Shown here: positions 28,323 to 47,640 of the stretch, piece after piece
How the letters are laid out: each line of letters starts with the position of its first letter
Numbering within the stretch: the first letter of the stretch is position 1
Source of the DNA: Deltaproteobacteria bacterium
GTDB taxonomy: Bacteria > Myxococcota_A > UBA9160 > SMWR01
Reading direction: 5' to 3'
Length of the DNA: 64,000 bases
Assembly (NCBI GenBank): GCA_019310965.1
Contig: JAFDDG010000005.1
Span: forward strand, 16,227 to 80,226
Notes under the pieces: generated by a model
What the model was told of the DNA's origin: nothing
The model's input: the letters and a program-made list of their open reading frames with translations, nothing else
Databases searched by the model: none
Position numbers and translations under genes: made by a program

Positions 28323-29450
28323 GTGTTGAAATTCGCTGCGTTCGGAAAGGTGCAGCGGGCGATCTGGCGCAGCTCCGTCGGCTTCGGCCGCAAGCTGCTG
28401 CTTTCGGCGCTCTTCTGCTTCCTGCTCCTGTGGGGCGTGCTGAACGCGATCTGCCTGGGGCTCGATCACGTCCTCTTCCCCGGCTTTCGCAAGGTGAGGG
28501 TGAAACGCCCGGTCTTCATCATCGCCCATCCCCGCAGCGGCACCACGCTCACGCACCGCTTGATGCTGAAGGACCCGGGGCGCTACAGCTGCACGCGCGC
28601 CTACGAATGCCTCCTGCCGTCGATCCTGCAGAAGAAGCTCGTACGCGCGCTGGGGTGGGTCGATCGCAGGCTGCTCGGCGGGCTGCTGCACGATTTCGTG
28701 CGCTCGAAGGAAAGCTCCGCCCTCGGCGATCTCCAGGACATTCACCACTTCTCCTTGCTCGAGCCCGAGGAAGACGAGTTCTTCTACTTCATGACCTTCG
28801 GCTCTGGAGTGAGTCTCTCCCTGTTTCCCTACGTCGATGAATTCCGCGAAGTGATGGCGTACGACTGGATGCCGGAAGCGGCGCAGCGCGAGCACCTCGA
28901 GTACTACCACGGCTGTCTCCAGCGCCAAGTCTACCTGGACGGCGAGGCCAGGGTCTTCTGCAGCAAGAACACGACCACCTTCATTCCGAAGATCGAGCCG
29001 CTGGCCGAGCTGTACCCGGATGCTCGCTTCGTCCACATCGTCCGCAACCCGCTCGAGGTGGCGCCGAGCCTGCTGAGTCTGCTCGCTTCCACCTGGCGGC
29101 AGCTGGGATTTCCCGAGGACGACATCCAACGCGGCTGCGCCGTGATCCACCGCACCAATATGCGGGCCTACGAGCTGGCATTCGAAGCCTTCGATCGCAT
29201 GGATCCGGGCCGCTACTGCATCATCGAGTACAGGGATCTGGTGTCGGCGCCGAAGGCGACGATGCTGAAGGTGTACGAGACACTCGGGATCGAGATGCGT
29301 CCCGCCTACGCGGCGGTACTCGACGAGCTGCAGGAGAAGGCCCGCTCGCATCGCTCCGGGCACGAGTACGGGCTCGAAGAATACGACCTCACCGAGGCCG
29401 GCATCCGCGCCGAGTTGCCCACCGTCTTCGAACGCTACCAGTTCGACTGA
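28323..29450 (+). CDS. Sulfotransferase-family protein with an N-terminal membrane anchor
   Basis: PAPS 5'-phosphosulfate-binding loop HPRSGTT, a later RNPLEV region, and an N-terminal hydrophobic helix (LLLSALFCFLLLWGVL). GTG start. Confidence 0.8.
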   Translation: MLKFAAFGKVQRAIWRSSVGFGRKLLLSALFCFLLLWGVLNAICLGLDHVLFPGFRKVRVKRPVFIIAHPRSGTTLTHRLMLKDPGRYSCTRAYECLLPSILQKKLVRALGWVDRRLLGGLLHDFVRSKESSALGDLQDIHHFSLLEPEEDEFFYFMTFGSGVSLSLFPYVDEFREVMAYDWMPEAAQREHLEYYHGCLQRQVYLDGEARVFCSKNTTTFIPKIEPLAELYPDARFVHIVRNPLEVAPSLLSLLASTWRQLGFPEDDIQRGCAVIHRTNMRAYELAFEAFDRMDPGRYCIIEYRDLVSAPKATMLKVYETLGIEMRPAYAAVLDELQEKARSHRSGHEYGLEEYDLTEAGIRAELPTVFERYQFD

Positions 29451-29454
29451 GCAA

Positions 29455-29519
29455 GCGGGGACGGTGTTGCTTTTTTGCCTTTTTCGAAAAAAAAGGCAAA
29501 AAAGCAACACCGTCCCCGC
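29455..29519. repeat. Perfect 30-bp-stem palindrome (5-nt loop) with an AT-rich core; copy 1 of a repeat family
   Basis: 29455..29484 is the exact reverse complement of 29490..29519 (GCGGGGACGGTGTTGCTTTTTTGCCTTTTT / AAAAAGGCAAAAAAGCAACACCGTCCCCGC). It lies between convergent genes. Confidence 0.95.
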
Positions 29520-29536: not shown

Positions 29537-30295
29537 TCAGTCTTTCCGCAGAAGATAGAAGACGTAGCTGTAGCTACCCCGGCTGCCTTCGAAGATTTCG
29601 ATCTCGTGGTCCTGGTGTCCGATCGCTGCGAGGGCGCGCGGATCGTCGGCGTAACGCGGGCGCAGCTTCGCCGCGCGGGCCTCGATTGGGTCGTAGTAGG
29701 CGCGCCAGTCCGAGTGGGGGAGTGCGAAGTGGTCGAGAACGCGGTAACCCGCTCGCTCGGCGCGTTTGCAGTTCGCCTCGACGTCGGCCATCTCCGGGTA
29801 GTGACCTTGCCAGAATGCCAGGGTCTCGGTCGGCGGCTCGCCGATCCAGCTCAGCTCGGTCACCGCCGCCAGGCCGCCCGGACGCAGCAGCTCGCCCCAG
29901 CGCGCGAGCCCGGCTTCGAAGCCCACGTTGTAGACGGCCCCTTCGCTCCAGATCAGATCGAACGAGCTCGCGGCGAACGGTGGACGAGCCATGTCGCTCT
30001 GCACCAGCGCGATGCGATCGGCGAGCCCCGCGCCTTCGGCGCGCGTGCGCAGTCGCTTCAGGAACGGCGGCAGCAGGTCGAGTGCCGCGATGTGGCCACC
30101 GGTCGCGCGCGCAAGCGCCAGCGTCTGGCGCCCGGGCCCGCAGCCCATGTCGGCGATGCGCGGTGTGCTGGGCAGCTCGGCCAGTGTCTCGAGCGCGCGA
30201 AGTGTCGAGGCATCGCTACCGGGGCCCTGCTGATCGAGATCCCCATTGACCAGCCACCACGCGGGGTGGGCCATGGGGTGAGGCTCGTCAGGCAT
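29537..30295 (-). CDS. Class I SAM-dependent methyltransferase
   Basis: ADMGCGPGRQT (motif I), LIWSEGAVY, LRPGG. The 5' end overlaps the upstream LLM gene stop by 8 nt. Confidence 0.85.
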   Translation of the reverse strand: MPDEPHPMAHPAWWLVNGDLDQQGPGSDASTLRALETLAELPSTPRIADMGCGPGRQTLALARATGGHIAALDLLPPFLKRLRTRAEGAGLADRIALVQSDMARPPFAASSFDLIWSEGAVYNVGFEAGLARWGELLRPGGLAAVTELSWIGEPPTETLAFWQGHYPEMADVEANCKRAERAGYRVLDHFALPHSDWRAYYDPIEARAAKLRPRYADDPRALAAIGHQDHEIEIFEGSRGSYSYVFYLLRKD

Positions 30296-45199: not shown

Positions 45200-45230
45200 T
45201 CTCGTCGCTGCCATCGAAGAGAAGGAGTGC

Positions 45231-45827
45231 GTGATGCCGAGAGTCGAACCGTTGACGCGTGGGGAGCTGGCCGAGTTCGAGCCCTTCTTTGCCGGGATCG
45301 AGCAGGCGCTGGGATTCGTGCCCAATAGCCTCTTGACCCTGGGGCGCTCTCCGGCGCTCTTGCGCGCGTTTGCCGGCCTGTCGGGCGCGGTGCTGATGCA
45401 GGGTCAGATCGATCGGGAGCTGAAGCAGCTGGTCGCATTCGTTTCCAGCAATGCCGCCGGCTGTCGTTACTGTCAAGCGCATACCAGCCACTCGGCGGAA
45501 CGCCTCGGCGTCCCCCTCGAGAAGCTCCAGGCCGCATTCGAGTTCGAGACCAGCCCGCTCTTCAGTGCCGCCGAGCGCGCGGCGCTGCAGCTGGCCCAGG
45601 CCGCCGGGCTCGTGCCCAACGCCAGCCGTGACGATCACTTCGTCGAGCTGCGGCGTCACTTCGACGAGACTCAGATCGTCGAGATCGTGTCGGTCATCGC
45701 GCTCTTCGGCTGGCTCAACCGCTGGAACGACACCATGGCGACGGAGCTGGAGAGCGGCCCGCTCGCCTTCGCCGAAGCGAATCTCGCACGCCACGGCTGG
45801 AAGTCGGGGCGGCACGCGGCCGGGTAA
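45231..45827 (+). CDS. AhpD-like/carboxymuconolactone decarboxylase family, peroxidase-related protein
   Basis: CxxC-H motif GCRYCQAH in the expected helix. AAGGAG upstream; ATG 45234 is an equally possible start. Confidence 0.85.
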   Translation: MMPRVEPLTRGELAEFEPFFAGIEQALGFVPNSLLTLGRSPALLRAFAGLSGAVLMQGQIDRELKQLVAFVSSNAAGCRYCQAHTSHSAERLGVPLEKLQAAFEFETSPLFSAAERAALQLAQAAGLVPNASRDDHFVELRRHFDETQIVEIVSVIALFGWLNRWNDTMATELESGPLAFAEANLARHGWKSGRHAAG

Positions 45828-45829
45828 AG

Positions 45830-45918
45830 GGGGACGGTGTTGCCTTCTTGCCTTTTTCCGGACCTGCTCGCTGACACCACCGCTCAGCCGAAAAAGGCAA
45901 GAAGGCAACACCGTCCCC
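45830..45918. repeat. Palindromic repeat copy 2: perfect 29-bp stem, 31-nt loop
   Basis: 45830..45858 is the exact reverse complement of 45890..45918. The arms match copy 1 except for two T-to-C changes that are mirrored in the opposite arm. It lies between convergent genes. Confidence 0.95.
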
Positions 45919-45933
45919 GCTTGCTGCCAACCG

Positions 45934-46272
45934 CTAGTCGAACACCTTCTCGAAGCTCTCTTCGTTGAAGCCGACGAGGAGGGTCTTGCCCCGTCGAATC
46001 GTCGGGGCTCGCAGGTTTCCGGTGGGGCCGAGCATGGCCTCGACCAGATCCTTGCCCGCCTTGCCGCCGGGGAATTCCTTCACCTTCTTGCCCTTGGCGA
46101 CGATCACCTTCGACGCCGCCTTGGCGAGCGCAGCTGCGTCTGCCCTGGCGAGCTTACGGCTCGCCGGGACGACCTCCTTGGCCTCGATGCCTCTGGCGTC
46201 CAGGAACCTGGACGCTCGGGTGCAAGACGTTCAGCCCTTGCGCTCGTAGTACCAGTCGATCGTCTTCGCCAT
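45934..46272 (-). CDS. ArsC/Spx-fold thiol-redox protein with in-frame UGA (probable selenocysteine, U-T-S-C motif)
   Basis: My reverse-complement translation: MAKTIDWYYERKG-[TGA 46231..46233]-TSCTRASRFLDARGIEAKEVV...GNLRAPTIRRGKTLLVGFNEESFEKVFD*. High GC3 continues across the TGA. AGGGGA lies about 7 nt upstream of the ATG. The TGA sits where this family has the first Cys of CxxC. Confidence 0.8.
46196..46215 (-). other. SECIS-like hairpin 15 nt downstream of the in-frame UGA
   Basis: The minus-strand RNA GCGUCCAG-GUUC-CUGGACGC forms a perfect 8-9 bp stem whose apical loop contains GU, comparable to the E. coli fdhF apical GGUC loop. Confidence 0.7.
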
Positions 46273-46315
46273 CGGCAATCCCCTTTGCTTCCGAAGCCCA
46301 ATCTACCCCACTGCG

Positions 46316-46337
46316 AAGAAGGCAACACCGTCCCCGC
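46316..46337. repeat. Solo right-arm copy of the palindromic repeat
   Basis: AAGAAGGCAACACCGTCCCCGC is identical to 45899..45920. No left-arm partner is nearby. Confidence 0.9.
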
Positions 46338-46410
46338 GGCTGCCACGTTGGCGCCTGCCACGCCCGAAAGGGTTTGGCCGCGGTGCGCAAGCGTGCGAAG
46401 CTCGGCCGCC

Positions 46411-47640
46411 GTGAGCACACGACCCTTTCTCGGCTGGCGCGTCGTTGCGGCAGCCTTTACGGCACAGCTGCTCTCGAACGGCTGCACGTTCGCCGTCTTT
46501 GGCGTCTTCGTGGTGCCGCTCAGCCAGGCATTCGATGTGAGTGAGGGGCGCTTCGGCCTAGGCCTCTCGTTCACCTTCCTGGTCATGGGGGCGATGGGGC
46601 CCCTGGTGGGTCGTTGGATCGACCGCGGCCTCGCGCGCCCGCTCATGCTCGCCGGAGTGGTCGCCACCGGCTGCGGCATGCTCGCACTCTCCCGCGCCGC
46701 CGAGCTCTGGCAGCTCGCCTTTGCCTTCTGTGGGATCGTCGGGGTCGGTACGGCGTGCTTCGGCCCGACGCCTTCGATGGGACTGGTGGCCAACTGGTTC
46801 GTGCGCCGCCGTGGCCTGGCGCTCGGCCTTACGGTGGCCGGGGCGACCGTCGCCACCTGGATCGCACCGCCGGTGGCGGCATATCTCATCGACAGCGTCG
46901 GCTGGCGCGCTGCGCTGGCGTGGTTTGGTGCTGGCGCCCTGACGATCGGCATTCCCGTGTTCTGGTTCTGCGTGGTGGGTCGGCCGGAATCCGTCGGGCA
47001 ACGGCCCGATGGCGATGCGCCGCTGGCCGAGGCCGTCGCTTCGCCACCCGCGGAAGAGGTTGCGACCGGCAGCCTGCTGCGCGATGCGAGACTCTGGCTG
47101 CTCTCCGTCGGCTTCGGGCTGGTGTTCACGTCGCCGATCGTCATCGTCCTGGTGCTGGTCCCCTTCGGCGAGCAGCTGGGCTTCTCGCGCCAGAACGCCG
47201 CCTTCTTCTTCTCGGCGATGGCGCCCTTCTCCCTGCTGGGGAAAGTCGTCTTCGGAGCCCTGGCCGATCGCGTGCCCGCGCACCTCGGCATCTGGATCGT
47301 GGTCCTCGGCAGTGCACTCGTCTGGGGGCTGCTCTACGCCAACCCGAGCTACGGCCTCTTCCTTGGTATCGGTGCGCTCTACGGTGTGGCAATCGGGGCG
47401 GCGGGGCCGTTGCAGGGTGTGATCATCGGACGTTGCTTCGGGCGTGCAGCGTTCGGGCGGGTTTACGGCATCGGCGGCCTGGCAACCGTGCCTATCATTG
47501 CCGCGGCGCCGGCGATTGCCGGCGTGTTGCGGGATGCCACGGGCAGCTACAACGCCGTGTTCCTGTTTCAGATCGTCGTCTTGTTGCTGGGCGGGGCGCT
47601 GCTGGCGATGGTGCGCATTCCGAAACATGCCGAGAGCTGA
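46411..47640 (+). CDS. MFS transporter (oxalate/formate antiporter-like subgroup)
   Basis: 12 predicted TM helices. Only the 3' part of the 729-aa track ORF is coding-like. The GTG start at 46411 (or 46393) is uncertain. Confidence 0.8.
   Translation: MSTRPFLGWRVVAAAFTAQLLSNGCTFAVFGVFVVPLSQAFDVSEGRFGLGLSFTFLVMGAMGPLVGRWIDRGLARPLMLAGVVATGCGMLALSRAAELWQLAFAFCGIVGVGTACFGPTPSMGLVANWFVRRRGLALGLTVAGATVATWIAPPVAAYLIDSVGWRAALAWFGAGALTIGIPVFWFCVVGRPESVGQRPDGDAPLAEAVASPPAEEVATGSLLRDARLWLLSVGFGLVFTSPIVIVLVLVPFGEQLGFSRQNAAFFFSAMAPFSLLGKVVFGALADRVPAHLGIWIVVLGSALVWGLLYANPSYGLFLGIGALYGVAIGAAGPLQGVIIGRCFGRAAFGRVYGIGGLATVPIIAAAPAIAGVLRDATGSYNAVFLFQIVVLLLGGALLAMVRIPKHAES

What the first reader, a model, noticed from the sequence alone, without database searches (positions are those of the whole stretch)
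45830..46337. Second palindrome copy with compensatory arm changes, and right-arm direct repeats bracketing the selenoprotein gene
45830..45858 pairs perfectly (29 bp) with 45890..45918 around a 31-nt loop. Relative to copy 1, the left arm has two T-to-C changes (GC-TTTTTT-GCC becomes GC-CTTCTT-GCC). Both are mirrored by A-to-G changes in the right arm, so the pairing, not just the sequence, is maintained.

A solo right arm (AAGAAGGCAACACCGTCCCCGC, 46316..46337) is identical to 45899..45920 and in the same orientation. The two copies flank the 339-nt selenoprotein gene like cassette boundaries. This suggests the gene was inserted, or is mobilised, by recombination at these hairpins, or that the hairpin family marks a hotspot.
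Basis: seen in the sequence. Interest (0 to 1): 0.65.

Follow-up and report, generated by a model that had tools for sequence, protein, structure and literature searches.

The report
Mobile hairpin repeat, not a gene cassette
The palindrome and the lone half-copy beside the small selenoprotein gene are copies of a dispersed mobile hairpin repeat whose relatives flank an IS200-like tyrosine transposase gene; they arrived after the gene was already there, so this is an ordinary though little-studied kind of bacterial repeat.

Summary
There is a perfect 29-bp inverted repeat at 45830-45858/45890-45918. Its differences from copy 1 (29455-29519) are mirrored in both arms. A 22-nt solo arm at 46316-46337 is identical to 45899-45920.

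The cassette reading is not supported. Two colinear relatives (about 80-84% nucleotide identity) have the same MacB/FtsX, CMD and ArsC-like gene order with no repeat. Their similarity to the window breaks exactly at the palindrome edge. More distant relatives have the CMD and ArsC-like genes abutting.

The repeat is a dispersed family. About 45 metagenome loci and 3 MAG loci share the consensus AGCGGGGACGGTGTTGCCTTTTGCCTTTTC-spacer-inverse. In seven fetched loci of five RAYT-like proteins, a Y1/HUH transposase gene with a DnaA-domain-IV-like C-terminus has an arm just upstream; six also have an inverted arm just downstream. The arm sequence changes along with the protein.

This matches the published TIRYT/TIRtron and REPIN-RAYT kind. 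The palindromes are head-to-head arm dimers, and the solo arm is a truncated single.

Arms stay symmetric: 24 of 29 elements, against 9 expected. Elements sit just after stop codons: 47 of 60 nearby gene ends are 3' ends.

This is a new member of a known kind, of low to moderate interest.

The parts
45828..45921 (.). Copy 2 of the repeat, a head-to-head dimer of the family arm. Left arm 45830-45858, spacer 45859-45889, right arm 45890-45918. It fills most of the spacer between the convergent CMD (+) and ArsC-like (-) genes.
   Evidence: Perfect 29-bp inverted repeat. Fold z -9.2 as RNA and -11.3 as DNA. Absent from the orthologous site in L093 and L094, with the alignment breaking at 45829/45936.
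46316..46337 (.). Solo, truncated arm. It has 22 of about 31 nt, with the inner GCCTTTTTC part missing. It has the same orientation and the same CTTCTT variant as the right arm of copy 2. It lies 44-65 nt upstream of the ArsC-like start codon, in the divergent spacer shared with the MFS gene.
   Evidence: Identical to 45899-45920 (D6). Profile hit E=1.6e-6. Does not fold on its own (z -0.4). Single arms are common in the family: L054, L073 and L033, and L086:1020 and L087.
29455..29519 (.). Copy 1, a dimer with a very short spacer and the TTTTTT arm variant. It lies between a convergent sulfotransferase gene (+, stop at 29448-29450) and a methyltransferase gene (-, stop at 29537-29539).
   Evidence: Fold z -11.
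45934..46272 (-). ArsC/glutaredoxin-like selenoprotein gene, with TGA at 46231-46233 in a UxxC motif. It is bracketed by the repeat copies but was at this locus before them.
   Evidence: Translation. Weak ArsC and Glutaredoxin Pfam hits, both below the curated cut-off. More than 4300 homologues, mostly called as 89-98 aa fragments that start after the TGA. Same position next to the CMD gene in repeat-free relatives.
46196..46215 (-). Candidate SECIS stem-loop of the ArsC-like mRNA (GCGUCCAG-GUUC-CUGGACGC), starting 15 nt after the UGA.
   Evidence: Predicted 8-bp stem in the window. The equivalent stem is predicted in L094 and L082.
45234..45827 (+). CMD/AhpD-like gene (197 aa), the conserved convergent partner of the ArsC-like gene. 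Its stop codon TAA is at 45825-45827, 2 nt before the repeat.
   Evidence: Pfam CMD E=4.7e-13. An identical protein is on JGI contig Ga0366820_1000325. The CMD/ArsC-like pair is conserved in L082-L085, L093 and L094.
46411..47640 (+). MFS transporter gene, divergent from the ArsC-like gene. The solo arm lies 73 nt upstream of its start.
   Evidence: Pfam MFS_1 E=7.9e-39.

Best explanation
The two palindromes in the window are non-autonomous, REPIN-like elements. Each is a head-to-head dimer of a roughly 30-nt arm (consensus AGCGGGGACGGTGTTGCCTTTTGCCTTTTC) separated by a variable spacer.

The same arm, in inverted orientation, flanks the gene of a RAYT-like Y1/HUH tyrosine transposase. That protein carries a DnaA-domain-IV-like DNA-binding C-terminus, the type published as TIRYT/TIRtron, subclass 2.1.

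Shown here:
- The family is dispersed across many unrelated loci.
- The transposase gene sits between matching inverted arms.
- Arm sequence co-varies with transposase sequence.
- There is no target-site duplication.
- Both arms of a copy carry the same variant.
- Copies lie immediately after stop codons.
- Copy 2 is absent from the orthologous site of two colinear relatives.

Inferred:
- The dimers are copied or moved in trans by the transposase through a single-stranded DNA hairpin. This would explain why only copies with matching arms persist and spread.
- The solo arm at 46316-46337 is a truncated, decaying single arm left by an earlier insertion.
- Copies tolerated at 3' ends may also act as RNA 3'-end stem-loops.

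The ArsC-like selenoprotein gene is an old resident of the locus, paired with the CMD gene. It is not cargo of the repeats.
For: Dispersed family:
- Three loci in two 'uncultured delta proteobacterium' MAGs.
- 71 metagenome loci matched the arm pattern, of which about 45 are clear family members with unrelated flanks.

Transposase link:
- In L023 a 326-aa ORF lies between inverted arms. Pfam Y1_Tnp E=3.5e-9. NCBIfam REP-associated tyrosine transposase E=1.9e-18.
- In seven fetched loci of four homologous proteins (L086-L092) an arm lies about 100-150 nt upstream of the gene, and in all but L086 an inverted arm lies about 15-50 nt downstream.
- Proteins 79-83% identical have GGGGACGGTGTTGCCTTCTTGCC, the window's copy-2 variant.
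- The 62% homologue has GGGGACGGAGTTGCCTTTTGCC on both sides. The 59% homologue has GGGGACGGGGTTGACTATTGAC on both sides.
- H61, H63 (the HUH motif) and Y120, N124, P125 are invariant, and H122 is conserved in at least 90%, of 27 homologues.
- The C-terminus matches DnaA domain IV (PDB 2z4r, E=1e-4).

Other features:
- No target-site duplication. Conservation ends at AGC/GCT.
- Arm symmetry in 24 of 29 elements, against 9.0 expected.
- 47 of 60 adjacent gene ends are 3' ends, at a median of about 4 nt.
- Empty orthologous sites and abutting genes in L082-L085.

Literature:
- TIRYT genes flanked by TIRs with the motif GGGGWSAS, with TIRs occurring as singles, dimers and groups (PMC3733652).
- Subclass 2.1 with Bac_DnaA_C/HTH C-termini holds 20 of 26 TIRYTs (PMC6006769).
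- REP singlets are described as decaying remnants of REPINs (PMC3337134).
Against: - No transposase gene lies in the 64-kb window, and the source genome could not be searched. A cognate enzyme in this organism is therefore assumed, not shown.
- Copy number per genome is unknown. The window has 5 arms in 64 kb, but one MAG with at least 0.84 Mb of contigs gave only 2 exact dimers.
- The NCBIfam score (66.8 bits) is below the curated cut-off of 80. The match to the solved E. coli TnpA-REP structure is only E=0.07.
- Mobility is inferred from presence or absence between relatives that are about 80% identical. Loss in those relatives, rather than gain here, is not formally excluded.
- No enzymology exists for this subclass.
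- The solo-arm site has no comparison sequence.
Confidence: 0.82

Rival explanations
1. Cassette boundaries: the direct right-arm copies are recombination sites, like integron attC sites, through which the selenoprotein gene was inserted or is mobilised.
For: Two identical 22-nt arms in direct orientation bracket a single small gene (D6). In L086, small toxin-antitoxin genes also lie between same-orientation arms.
Against: - The ArsC-like gene sits in the same place next to the CMD gene in L093 and L094, with no arm.
- It abuts the CMD gene in L082-L085.
- The arms contain no attC core (RYYYAAC/GTTRRRY), by inspection of the sequence.
- The ArsC-like gene occurs in many unrelated contexts without arms.
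- Most family copies flank no small gene. They sit after stop codons of unrelated genes.
Confidence: 0.04
2. A bidirectional transcription terminator or mRNA-stabilising stem-loop that evolved in place for the convergent gene pair, with sequence similarity between copies due to common functional constraints.
For: - Both full copies lie between convergent genes, within 2-17 nt of the stop codons.
- The stems are very stable.
- The family as a whole sits at 3' ends.
Against: - About 30 nt of arm sequence is shared among dozens of unrelated loci and several genomes. That points to common descent, not convergence.
- The copy is absent from the orthologous site in relatives.
- No T-run follows the stems, and the terminator scan did not call either side of the palindrome.
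- Some copies lie in divergent promoter regions: L002 and the solo arm.
- A secondary, exapted role at RNA 3' ends remains possible and is compatible with the main explanation.
Confidence: 0.05
3. A conventional MITE, meaning a deletion derivative of a DDE-transposase insertion sequence with terminal inverted repeats.
For: Terminal inverted repeats of about 30 bp, small size (65-100 bp) and a variable interior.
Against: - No target-site duplication of any length at 29 elements.
- The only gene found between the arms, in L023 and in six of the seven other fetched loci, is a Y1/HUH transposase whose divergence tracks arm divergence.
Confidence: 0.04
4. The solo arm is not an independent insertion remnant. 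It is a local copy of the right arm of copy 2 together with some of its flank, made by duplication or gene conversion.
For: - The solo arm carries exactly the copy-2 variant (CTTCTT).
- Both copies are followed, after 1-2 nt, by GCTGCC (45923-45928 and 46339-46344).
- GCTGCC also occurs in the repeat-free spacer of L094.
Against: - A 6-mer match at a loose offset in a 68% G+C genome is weak evidence.
- CTTCTT-variant arms occur at many other loci (L012, L039, L050 and L054; L086 and L087). An independent insertion of the same subfamily is therefore equally likely.
- Nothing between the two copies other than the gene is duplicated.
Confidence: 0.15

Closest known systems
[quoted passage not shown] 2013, PMC3733652), equal to TnpA-REP subclass 2.1 of Quentin et al. 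2018 (PMC6006769)
   Same: - A RAYT-like Y1/HUH transposase gene flanked by long terminal inverted repeats that are not themselves hairpins.
- The repeat begins GGGGAC, close to the published GGGGWSAS motif.
- The protein is longer than a RAYT, with a C-terminal DnaA-like helix-turn-helix domain.
- The flanking repeat also occurs elsewhere as singles, dimers and groups.
   Different: - The arm reads GGGGACGG, matching 7 of 8 motif positions.
- The hosts are uncultured, high-G+C 'deltaproteobacterial' lineages from marine sediment, not the published species.
- Here the dimers dominate, are near-perfect, have recognisable spacer subtypes, and show a strong preference for sites just after stop codons. 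None of this was found in the passages of those two papers that were read.
REPIN-RAYT systems (Bertels and Rainey 2011; PMC3116915, PMC3337134)
   Same: - Two inverted repeat units around a poorly conserved spacer form a hairpin of about 89 bp.
- Elements are extragenic and have no target duplication.
- The cognate single-locus Y1 transposase is flanked by the same repeats.
- Repeat and transposase co-diverge.
- Singlets are regarded as decaying remnants.
   Different: - The unit here is not a REP. A single arm has no internal palindrome (z +0.6) and no GTAG tag.
- The transposase is about 325 aa with an extra DNA-binding domain, against about 150-170 aa for a RAYT.
- Copy number per genome is unknown and may be modest.
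IS200/IS605 insertion sequences (for example IS608)
   Same: A Y1/HUH transposase fold (Pfam Y1_Tnp). No target duplication. A probable single-stranded DNA hairpin substrate.
   Different: IS200/IS605 ends carry different subterminal hairpins in direct orientation, not long terminal inverted repeats. The whole IS is multi-copy. Here the short dimers are dispersed, and the transposase locus looks fixed, with the same neighbours in three samples (L088-L090).

Membership tests
TIRtron/TIRYT repeat family | A Y1 transposase gene with the HUH motif and a catalytic Tyr (YxHxNP) lies between the repeats | tested here: met
   Pfam Y1_Tnp E=3.5e-9. NCBIfam REP_Tyr_transpos E=1.9e-18, but 66.8 bits is below the cut-off of 80. 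H61, H63, Y120, N124 and P125 are invariant, and H122 is conserved in at least 90%, of 27 homologues.
TIRtron/TIRYT repeat family | The gene is flanked by terminal inverted repeats that are not self-complementary hairpins | tested here: met
   Inverted arms flank the gene in L023 and L087-L092. In L086 only the upstream arm was found. A single arm folds no better than shuffles (z +0.6).
TIRtron/TIRYT repeat family | The TIR carries the motif GGGGWSAS | tested here: inconclusive
   The arms begin GGGGACGG, matching 7 of 8 positions, with G instead of A at position 7.
TIRtron/TIRYT repeat family | C-terminal helix-turn-helix or Bac_DnaA_C domain (subclass 2.1) | tested here: met
   A profile of 27 homologues hits DnaA domain IV (2z4r E=1e-4; 2hcb and 1l8q E=4e-4). 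PF08299 is precomputed for many homologues. Literature.
TIRtron/TIRYT repeat family | The TIR sequence is also dispersed as singles, dimers or groups | tested here: met
   Dimers and singles in about 45 loci. Tandem arms in L087. The window has 2 dimers and 1 single.
REPIN-RAYT | Two inverted units and a spacer form a hairpin, and the elements are extragenic | tested here: met
   A crude gene caller put 4 of about 60 elements inside a called ORF.
REPIN-RAYT | Each unit is a REP, meaning a short imperfect palindrome, usually with a GTAG tag | tested here: not met
   A single arm does not self-fold, and the arm has no GTAG. This is therefore not a canonical REP/REPIN, although it works like one.
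REPIN-RAYT | High copy number within one genome (tens to hundreds) | not testable with these tools
   Only 64 kb of the source genome is available, holding 5 arms. The source genome is not in genome contigs. One related MAG shows only 2 exact dimers.
REPIN-RAYT | Presence or absence polymorphism at orthologous sites (mobility) | tested here: met
   L093 and L094 lack copy 2, and the alignment breaks at its edges.
Integron gene cassette / attC | The gene is present only together with its recombination site, and an attC core RYYYAAC...GTTRRRY is present | tested here: not met
   The gene is present at the same locus without any arm. No attC core is visible in the arm sequence. The window was not scanned for an integrase.
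Intrinsic terminator | A G+C-rich stem followed directly by a T/U run | tested here: not met
   The scan calls no terminator at the palindrome. The stems are followed by GCTTGCTG on the + strand and CTTTACCC on the - strand.
DDE-type MITE | Target-site duplication flanking the inverted repeats | tested here: not met
   No direct repeat at the flanks of 29 elements. Conservation ends at AGC...GCT.

The most novel reading that the evidence does not exclude
The arrangement 'solo arm - selenoprotein gene - full dimer' may be functional rather than debris. Two readings are possible.

(a) The two same-orientation arms could let the Y1 transposase excise the 0.4-kb segment carrying the Sec gene as a single-stranded circle, as IS200/IS605 ends do for their cargo.

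(b) On the ArsC-like mRNA, the 5'-leader copy of the arm is perfectly complementary over 20 nt (I3) to one arm of the 3' hairpin. It could compete with that hairpin and so link 5' and 3' ends in regulating a selenoprotein transcript.

The synteny data exclude the repeats having delivered the gene. They do not exclude either present-day effect.
Probability: 0.05. Interest if true: 0.6.

Novelty: new member of a known kind. Interest (0 to 1): 0.25.

Why it matters
It removes an attractive but wrong reading, namely a selenoprotein gene cassette. It also assigns the window's palindromes to a concrete mechanism class.

TIRYT-type elements have been described only from comparative genomics, and I found no enzymology for them. 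This family offers unusually clean material for such work:
- near-perfect dimers;
- arm and transposase co-variation across four divergence levels;
- a precise empty site;
- a strong bias for positions just after stop codons.

The family would be a good substrate set for testing how a Y1 transposase with a DnaA-like DNA-binding domain recognises long inverted repeats.

For annotation, these hairpins explain spurious short ORFs and contig breaks in MAGs from marine sediment.

Tried and rejected
- Rfam at gathering thresholds and a tRNA/tmRNA scan of the whole window found nothing.
- The promoter and terminator scan found nothing at the repeat.
- Column-wise covariation on a MAFFT alignment of 29 elements (A1) was abandoned. 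Length differences in the T-runs put the two arms out of register. I replaced it with a per-element comparison of the two arms against shuffled partners.
- I considered a TA target duplication of the IS630/Tc1 type, because many flanks read TAG|CGGGG. Position -5 is T in only 16 of 58 arms and nothing is duplicated, so I rejected it.
- Population evidence for excision was sought by laying contigs of four metagenome runs on 45200-46900. Only short, 85-95% similar fragments from mixed relatives were found, which is uninformative.
- No RNA run holds the region.
- phmmer of the transposase against PDB gave nothing. Only a profile reached DnaA domain IV, and TnpA-REP weakly.
- The first look-up of the CMD protein with the GTG start failed. 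The ATG start worked.
- The solo-arm side could not be compared.

Full report
**1. The observation**

- 45830-45858 and 45890-45918 form a perfect 29-bp inverted repeat around 31 nt (I1).
- The stem-loop is far more stable than dinucleotide shuffles. As RNA it is -70 kcal/mol, z -9.2. As DNA it is -41.4 kcal/mol, z -11.3.
- A first copy lies at 29455-29519. Both of its arms read ...GTTGCTTTTTTGCC and both arms of copy 2 read ...GTTGCCTTCTTGCC. The two differences are therefore mirrored.
- A 22-nt solo arm at 46316-46337 is identical to 45899-45920 and has the same orientation (D6).
- A profile built from family arms finds exactly these five arms in the 64-kb window and nothing else.

**2. The genes around it**

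- 45234-45827 (+) encodes a 197-aa CMD/AhpD-like protein.
- 45934-46272 (-) encodes a 112-residue ArsC/glutaredoxin-like protein with an in-frame TGA in a UxxC motif.
- 46411-47640 (+) encodes an MFS transporter.

Copy 2 fills most of the 106-nt spacer between the convergent CMD and ArsC-like genes. The solo arm lies in the divergent ArsC-like/MFS spacer, 44-65 nt upstream of the ArsC-like start codon. Copy 1 lies between a convergent sulfotransferase gene and a methyltransferase gene, 4 nt and 17 nt from their stop codons.

**3. The repeat is a dispersed family**

A scan of species-representative genomes for the two outer arm halves found three loci in two 'uncultured delta proteobacterium' MAGs. 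A scan of metagenome contigs for GCGGGGACGGTGTTGCYTT found 71 loci. About 45 of these are clear family members with unrelated flanks. The rest are chance matches inside coding sequence.

The consensus is AGCGGGGACGGTGTTGCCTTTTGCCTTTTC, then a spacer of about 5-45 nt, then the inverse of the arm.
- Several spacer types recur, but spacers are much less conserved than arms.
- Conservation stops at AGC...GCT, and there is no target-site duplication.
- Single arms without a partner occur repeatedly: L033, L054, L073 and L071, and L086:1020.

**4. The transposase link**

In L023 the two arms are 1.1 kb apart, in inverted orientation, and enclose one ORF.
- The ORF has an IS200-like Y1 transposase domain (Pfam E=3.5e-9).
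- Its best NCBIfam match is 'REP-associated tyrosine transposase' (E=1.9e-18; the score of 66.8 bits is below the curated cut-off of 80).
- Homologues are numerous, and JGI often names them RayT.

I fetched seven further loci for four homologous proteins. In each an arm lies about 100-150 nt upstream of the gene. In all but L086 an inverted arm also lies about 15-50 nt downstream.

The arm sequence tracks protein divergence:

| Protein identity to L023 | Arm sequence on both sides |
|---|---|
| 79-83% | GGGGACGGTGTTGCCTTCTTGCC (the variant of window copy 2 and the solo arm); in L086 (79%) only the upstream arm was found |
| 62% | GGGGACGGAGTTGCCTTTTGCC |
| 59% | GGGGACGGGGTTGACTATTGAC |

Further features of the protein:
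- The HUH histidines and Y120, N124 and P125 of the YxHxNP tyrosine motif are invariant in 27 homologues, and its H122 is conserved in at least 90%.
- The C-terminal third matches DnaA domain IV, the double-stranded DNA-binding helix-turn-helix (2z4r E=1e-4).
- The solved E. coli TnpA-REP structure (4er8) is reached only at E=0.07.
- No such gene lies in the window.

**5. Pairing is maintained**

Among 29 non-redundant dimers, the 13 nt following the invariant core are identical on both arms in 24. When partners are shuffled, the mean is 9.0 and the maximum is 16 in 5000 trials.

At least seven symmetric variants exist, some differing by insertions. Of 15 dimers with a non-majority variant, 10 carry it on both arms.

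A single arm does not fold on its own (z about +0.6). The hairpin exists only in the dimer.

**6. Where copies sit**

A crude G+C-third-position gene caller was used for this. Of 60 gene ends within 150 nt of an element, 47 are 3' ends, at a median distance of about 4 nt. Several stop codons overlap the terminal AG of the element.

The association with gene boundaries is real. However, it is with stop codons in general, not with small redox or selenoprotein genes.

**7. The cassette idea fails its own test**

The closest CMD homologues on record are L093 (86% amino-acid identity) and L094 (84%). Both are colinear with the window through MacB/FtsX, CMD and the ArsC-like gene.
- blastn similarity (80-84%) runs up to window position 45829 in L094 and 45822 in L093, and resumes at 45936 in both. 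Only the stretch that holds the palindrome is unmatched.
- Their spacers are 31 and 56 nt of unrelated sequence with no arm.
- In more distant relatives (L082-L085; CMD 72% and ArsC-like 79% identical) the two genes are convergent and abut, again without arms.
- The ArsC-like family is large, with more than 4300 hits. Most are called as fragments starting after the TGA. It occurs in several other contexts without arms.

The gene pair therefore predates the repeat, and copy 2 is a discrete insertion in the window's lineage. Less likely, it was deleted precisely in both relatives.

The solo-arm site could not be compared.

**8. What it is and how it probably works**

The evidence fits a non-autonomous hairpin element copied by a Y1/HUH transposase.
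- Shown: a dispersed family, the transposase between matching arms, co-variation, no target duplication, symmetric arms, an empty orthologous site.
- Inferred: mobilisation in trans through a single-stranded DNA hairpin. This would select for copies whose arms match.
- Inferred: the solo arm is a truncated single copy. It lacks the inner 9 nt and the partner arm. This parallels the REP singlets that Bertels and Rainey regard as decaying remnants.

A secondary role of the tolerated copies as RNA 3'-end stem-loops is plausible from their position but untested. There is no T-run after the stems.

**9. Comparison with what is known**

The closest description is the TIRtron/TIRYT class. These are RAYT-like genes flanked by terminal inverted repeats rather than REP hairpins. 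Many of the TIRs share the motif GGGGWSAS, and TIRs occur as singles, dimers and groups.

Quentin et al. place 20 of 26 TIRYTs in TnpA-REP subclass 2.1, whose members carry Bac_DnaA_C or HTH C-termini.

The present family meets these features, except that its arm starts GGGGACGG, which matches 7 of 8 motif positions.

It works like a REPIN-RAYT system but is not a canonical REP, because a single arm is not a palindrome and has no GTAG tag. Copy number per genome could not be determined.

**10. Verdict**

- The structural inference, that pairing is maintained, is supported.
- The cassette or mobilisation inference is refuted by repeat-free orthologous loci.
- The feature is a new member of a known but little-studied kind.
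- Interest is low to moderate.

The main value is a clean natural data set for TIRYT biology, and the removal of a misleading link to the selenoprotein gene.

Noticed in passing
window 46196-46215 (- strand), with TGA at 46231-46233: The ArsC-like mRNA has a stem-loop GCGUCCAG-GUUC-CUGGACGC starting 15 nt after the in-frame UGA. An equivalent stem is predicted in L094 and L082. This looks like a bacterial SECIS and supports a genuine UxxC selenoprotein. Most database homologues are called as 89-98 aa fragments that start after the TGA.
   Followed up: partly
window 45234-46272; L082:5932-6864; L093; L094: The 197-aa CMD/AhpD-like gene (CxxC motif 'CRYC') and the ArsC-like Sec gene form a conserved convergent pair down to 72% and 79% protein identity, while all other neighbours change. 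This suggests a functional redox couple.
   Followed up: partly
L006, L017, L022, L031, L034, L037, L038, L041, L047, L048, L062, L066 (dimers with the 'type A' spacer): Twelve dimers share a recognisable spacer (about CGCGCGGGGnGGnCTCGAAACCnnCATCGAGATGAGnCG), which gives the otherwise symmetric element an orientation. In 10 of the 12 a gene ends at the spacer's 5' side. Only 1 has a gene end solely at the other side. Seven of those 10 stop codons are TAG, which I would expect to be a minority stop codon in DNA this G+C-rich (my expectation; stop-codon usage was not counted here). This hints at strand-specific insertion next to a TAG-containing target. The sample is small.
   Followed up: partly
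L086:300-2600: A cluster of toxin-antitoxin genes (Unstab_antitox, ParE, HicA, PIN) lies directly upstream of the transposase gene. Family arms of the same orientation sit between the modules, at 312, 1020 and 2557.
   Followed up: no
L044:4280 and L055:3621: A variant dimer keeps the outer GGGGACGGTG...CACCGTCCCC but has an unrelated, again self-complementary, inner arm (TTGTACTTCTCG...CGAGAAGTACAA). This is a more extreme case of both arms changing together.
   Followed up: no
window 45923-45928 and 46339-46344; L094:1054-1059: GCTGCC follows both the right arm of copy 2 and the solo arm, 1-2 nt after the arm. It also occurs in the repeat-free spacer of L094. It could be chance, a target preference, or a sign that the solo arm was copied together with some flank.
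   Followed up: no
L015 and L067: These two contigs share the same left flank and identical arms but carry the spacer in opposite orientations. This suggests that the spacer of a dimer inverts, or an assembly artefact at a perfect palindrome.
   Followed up: no
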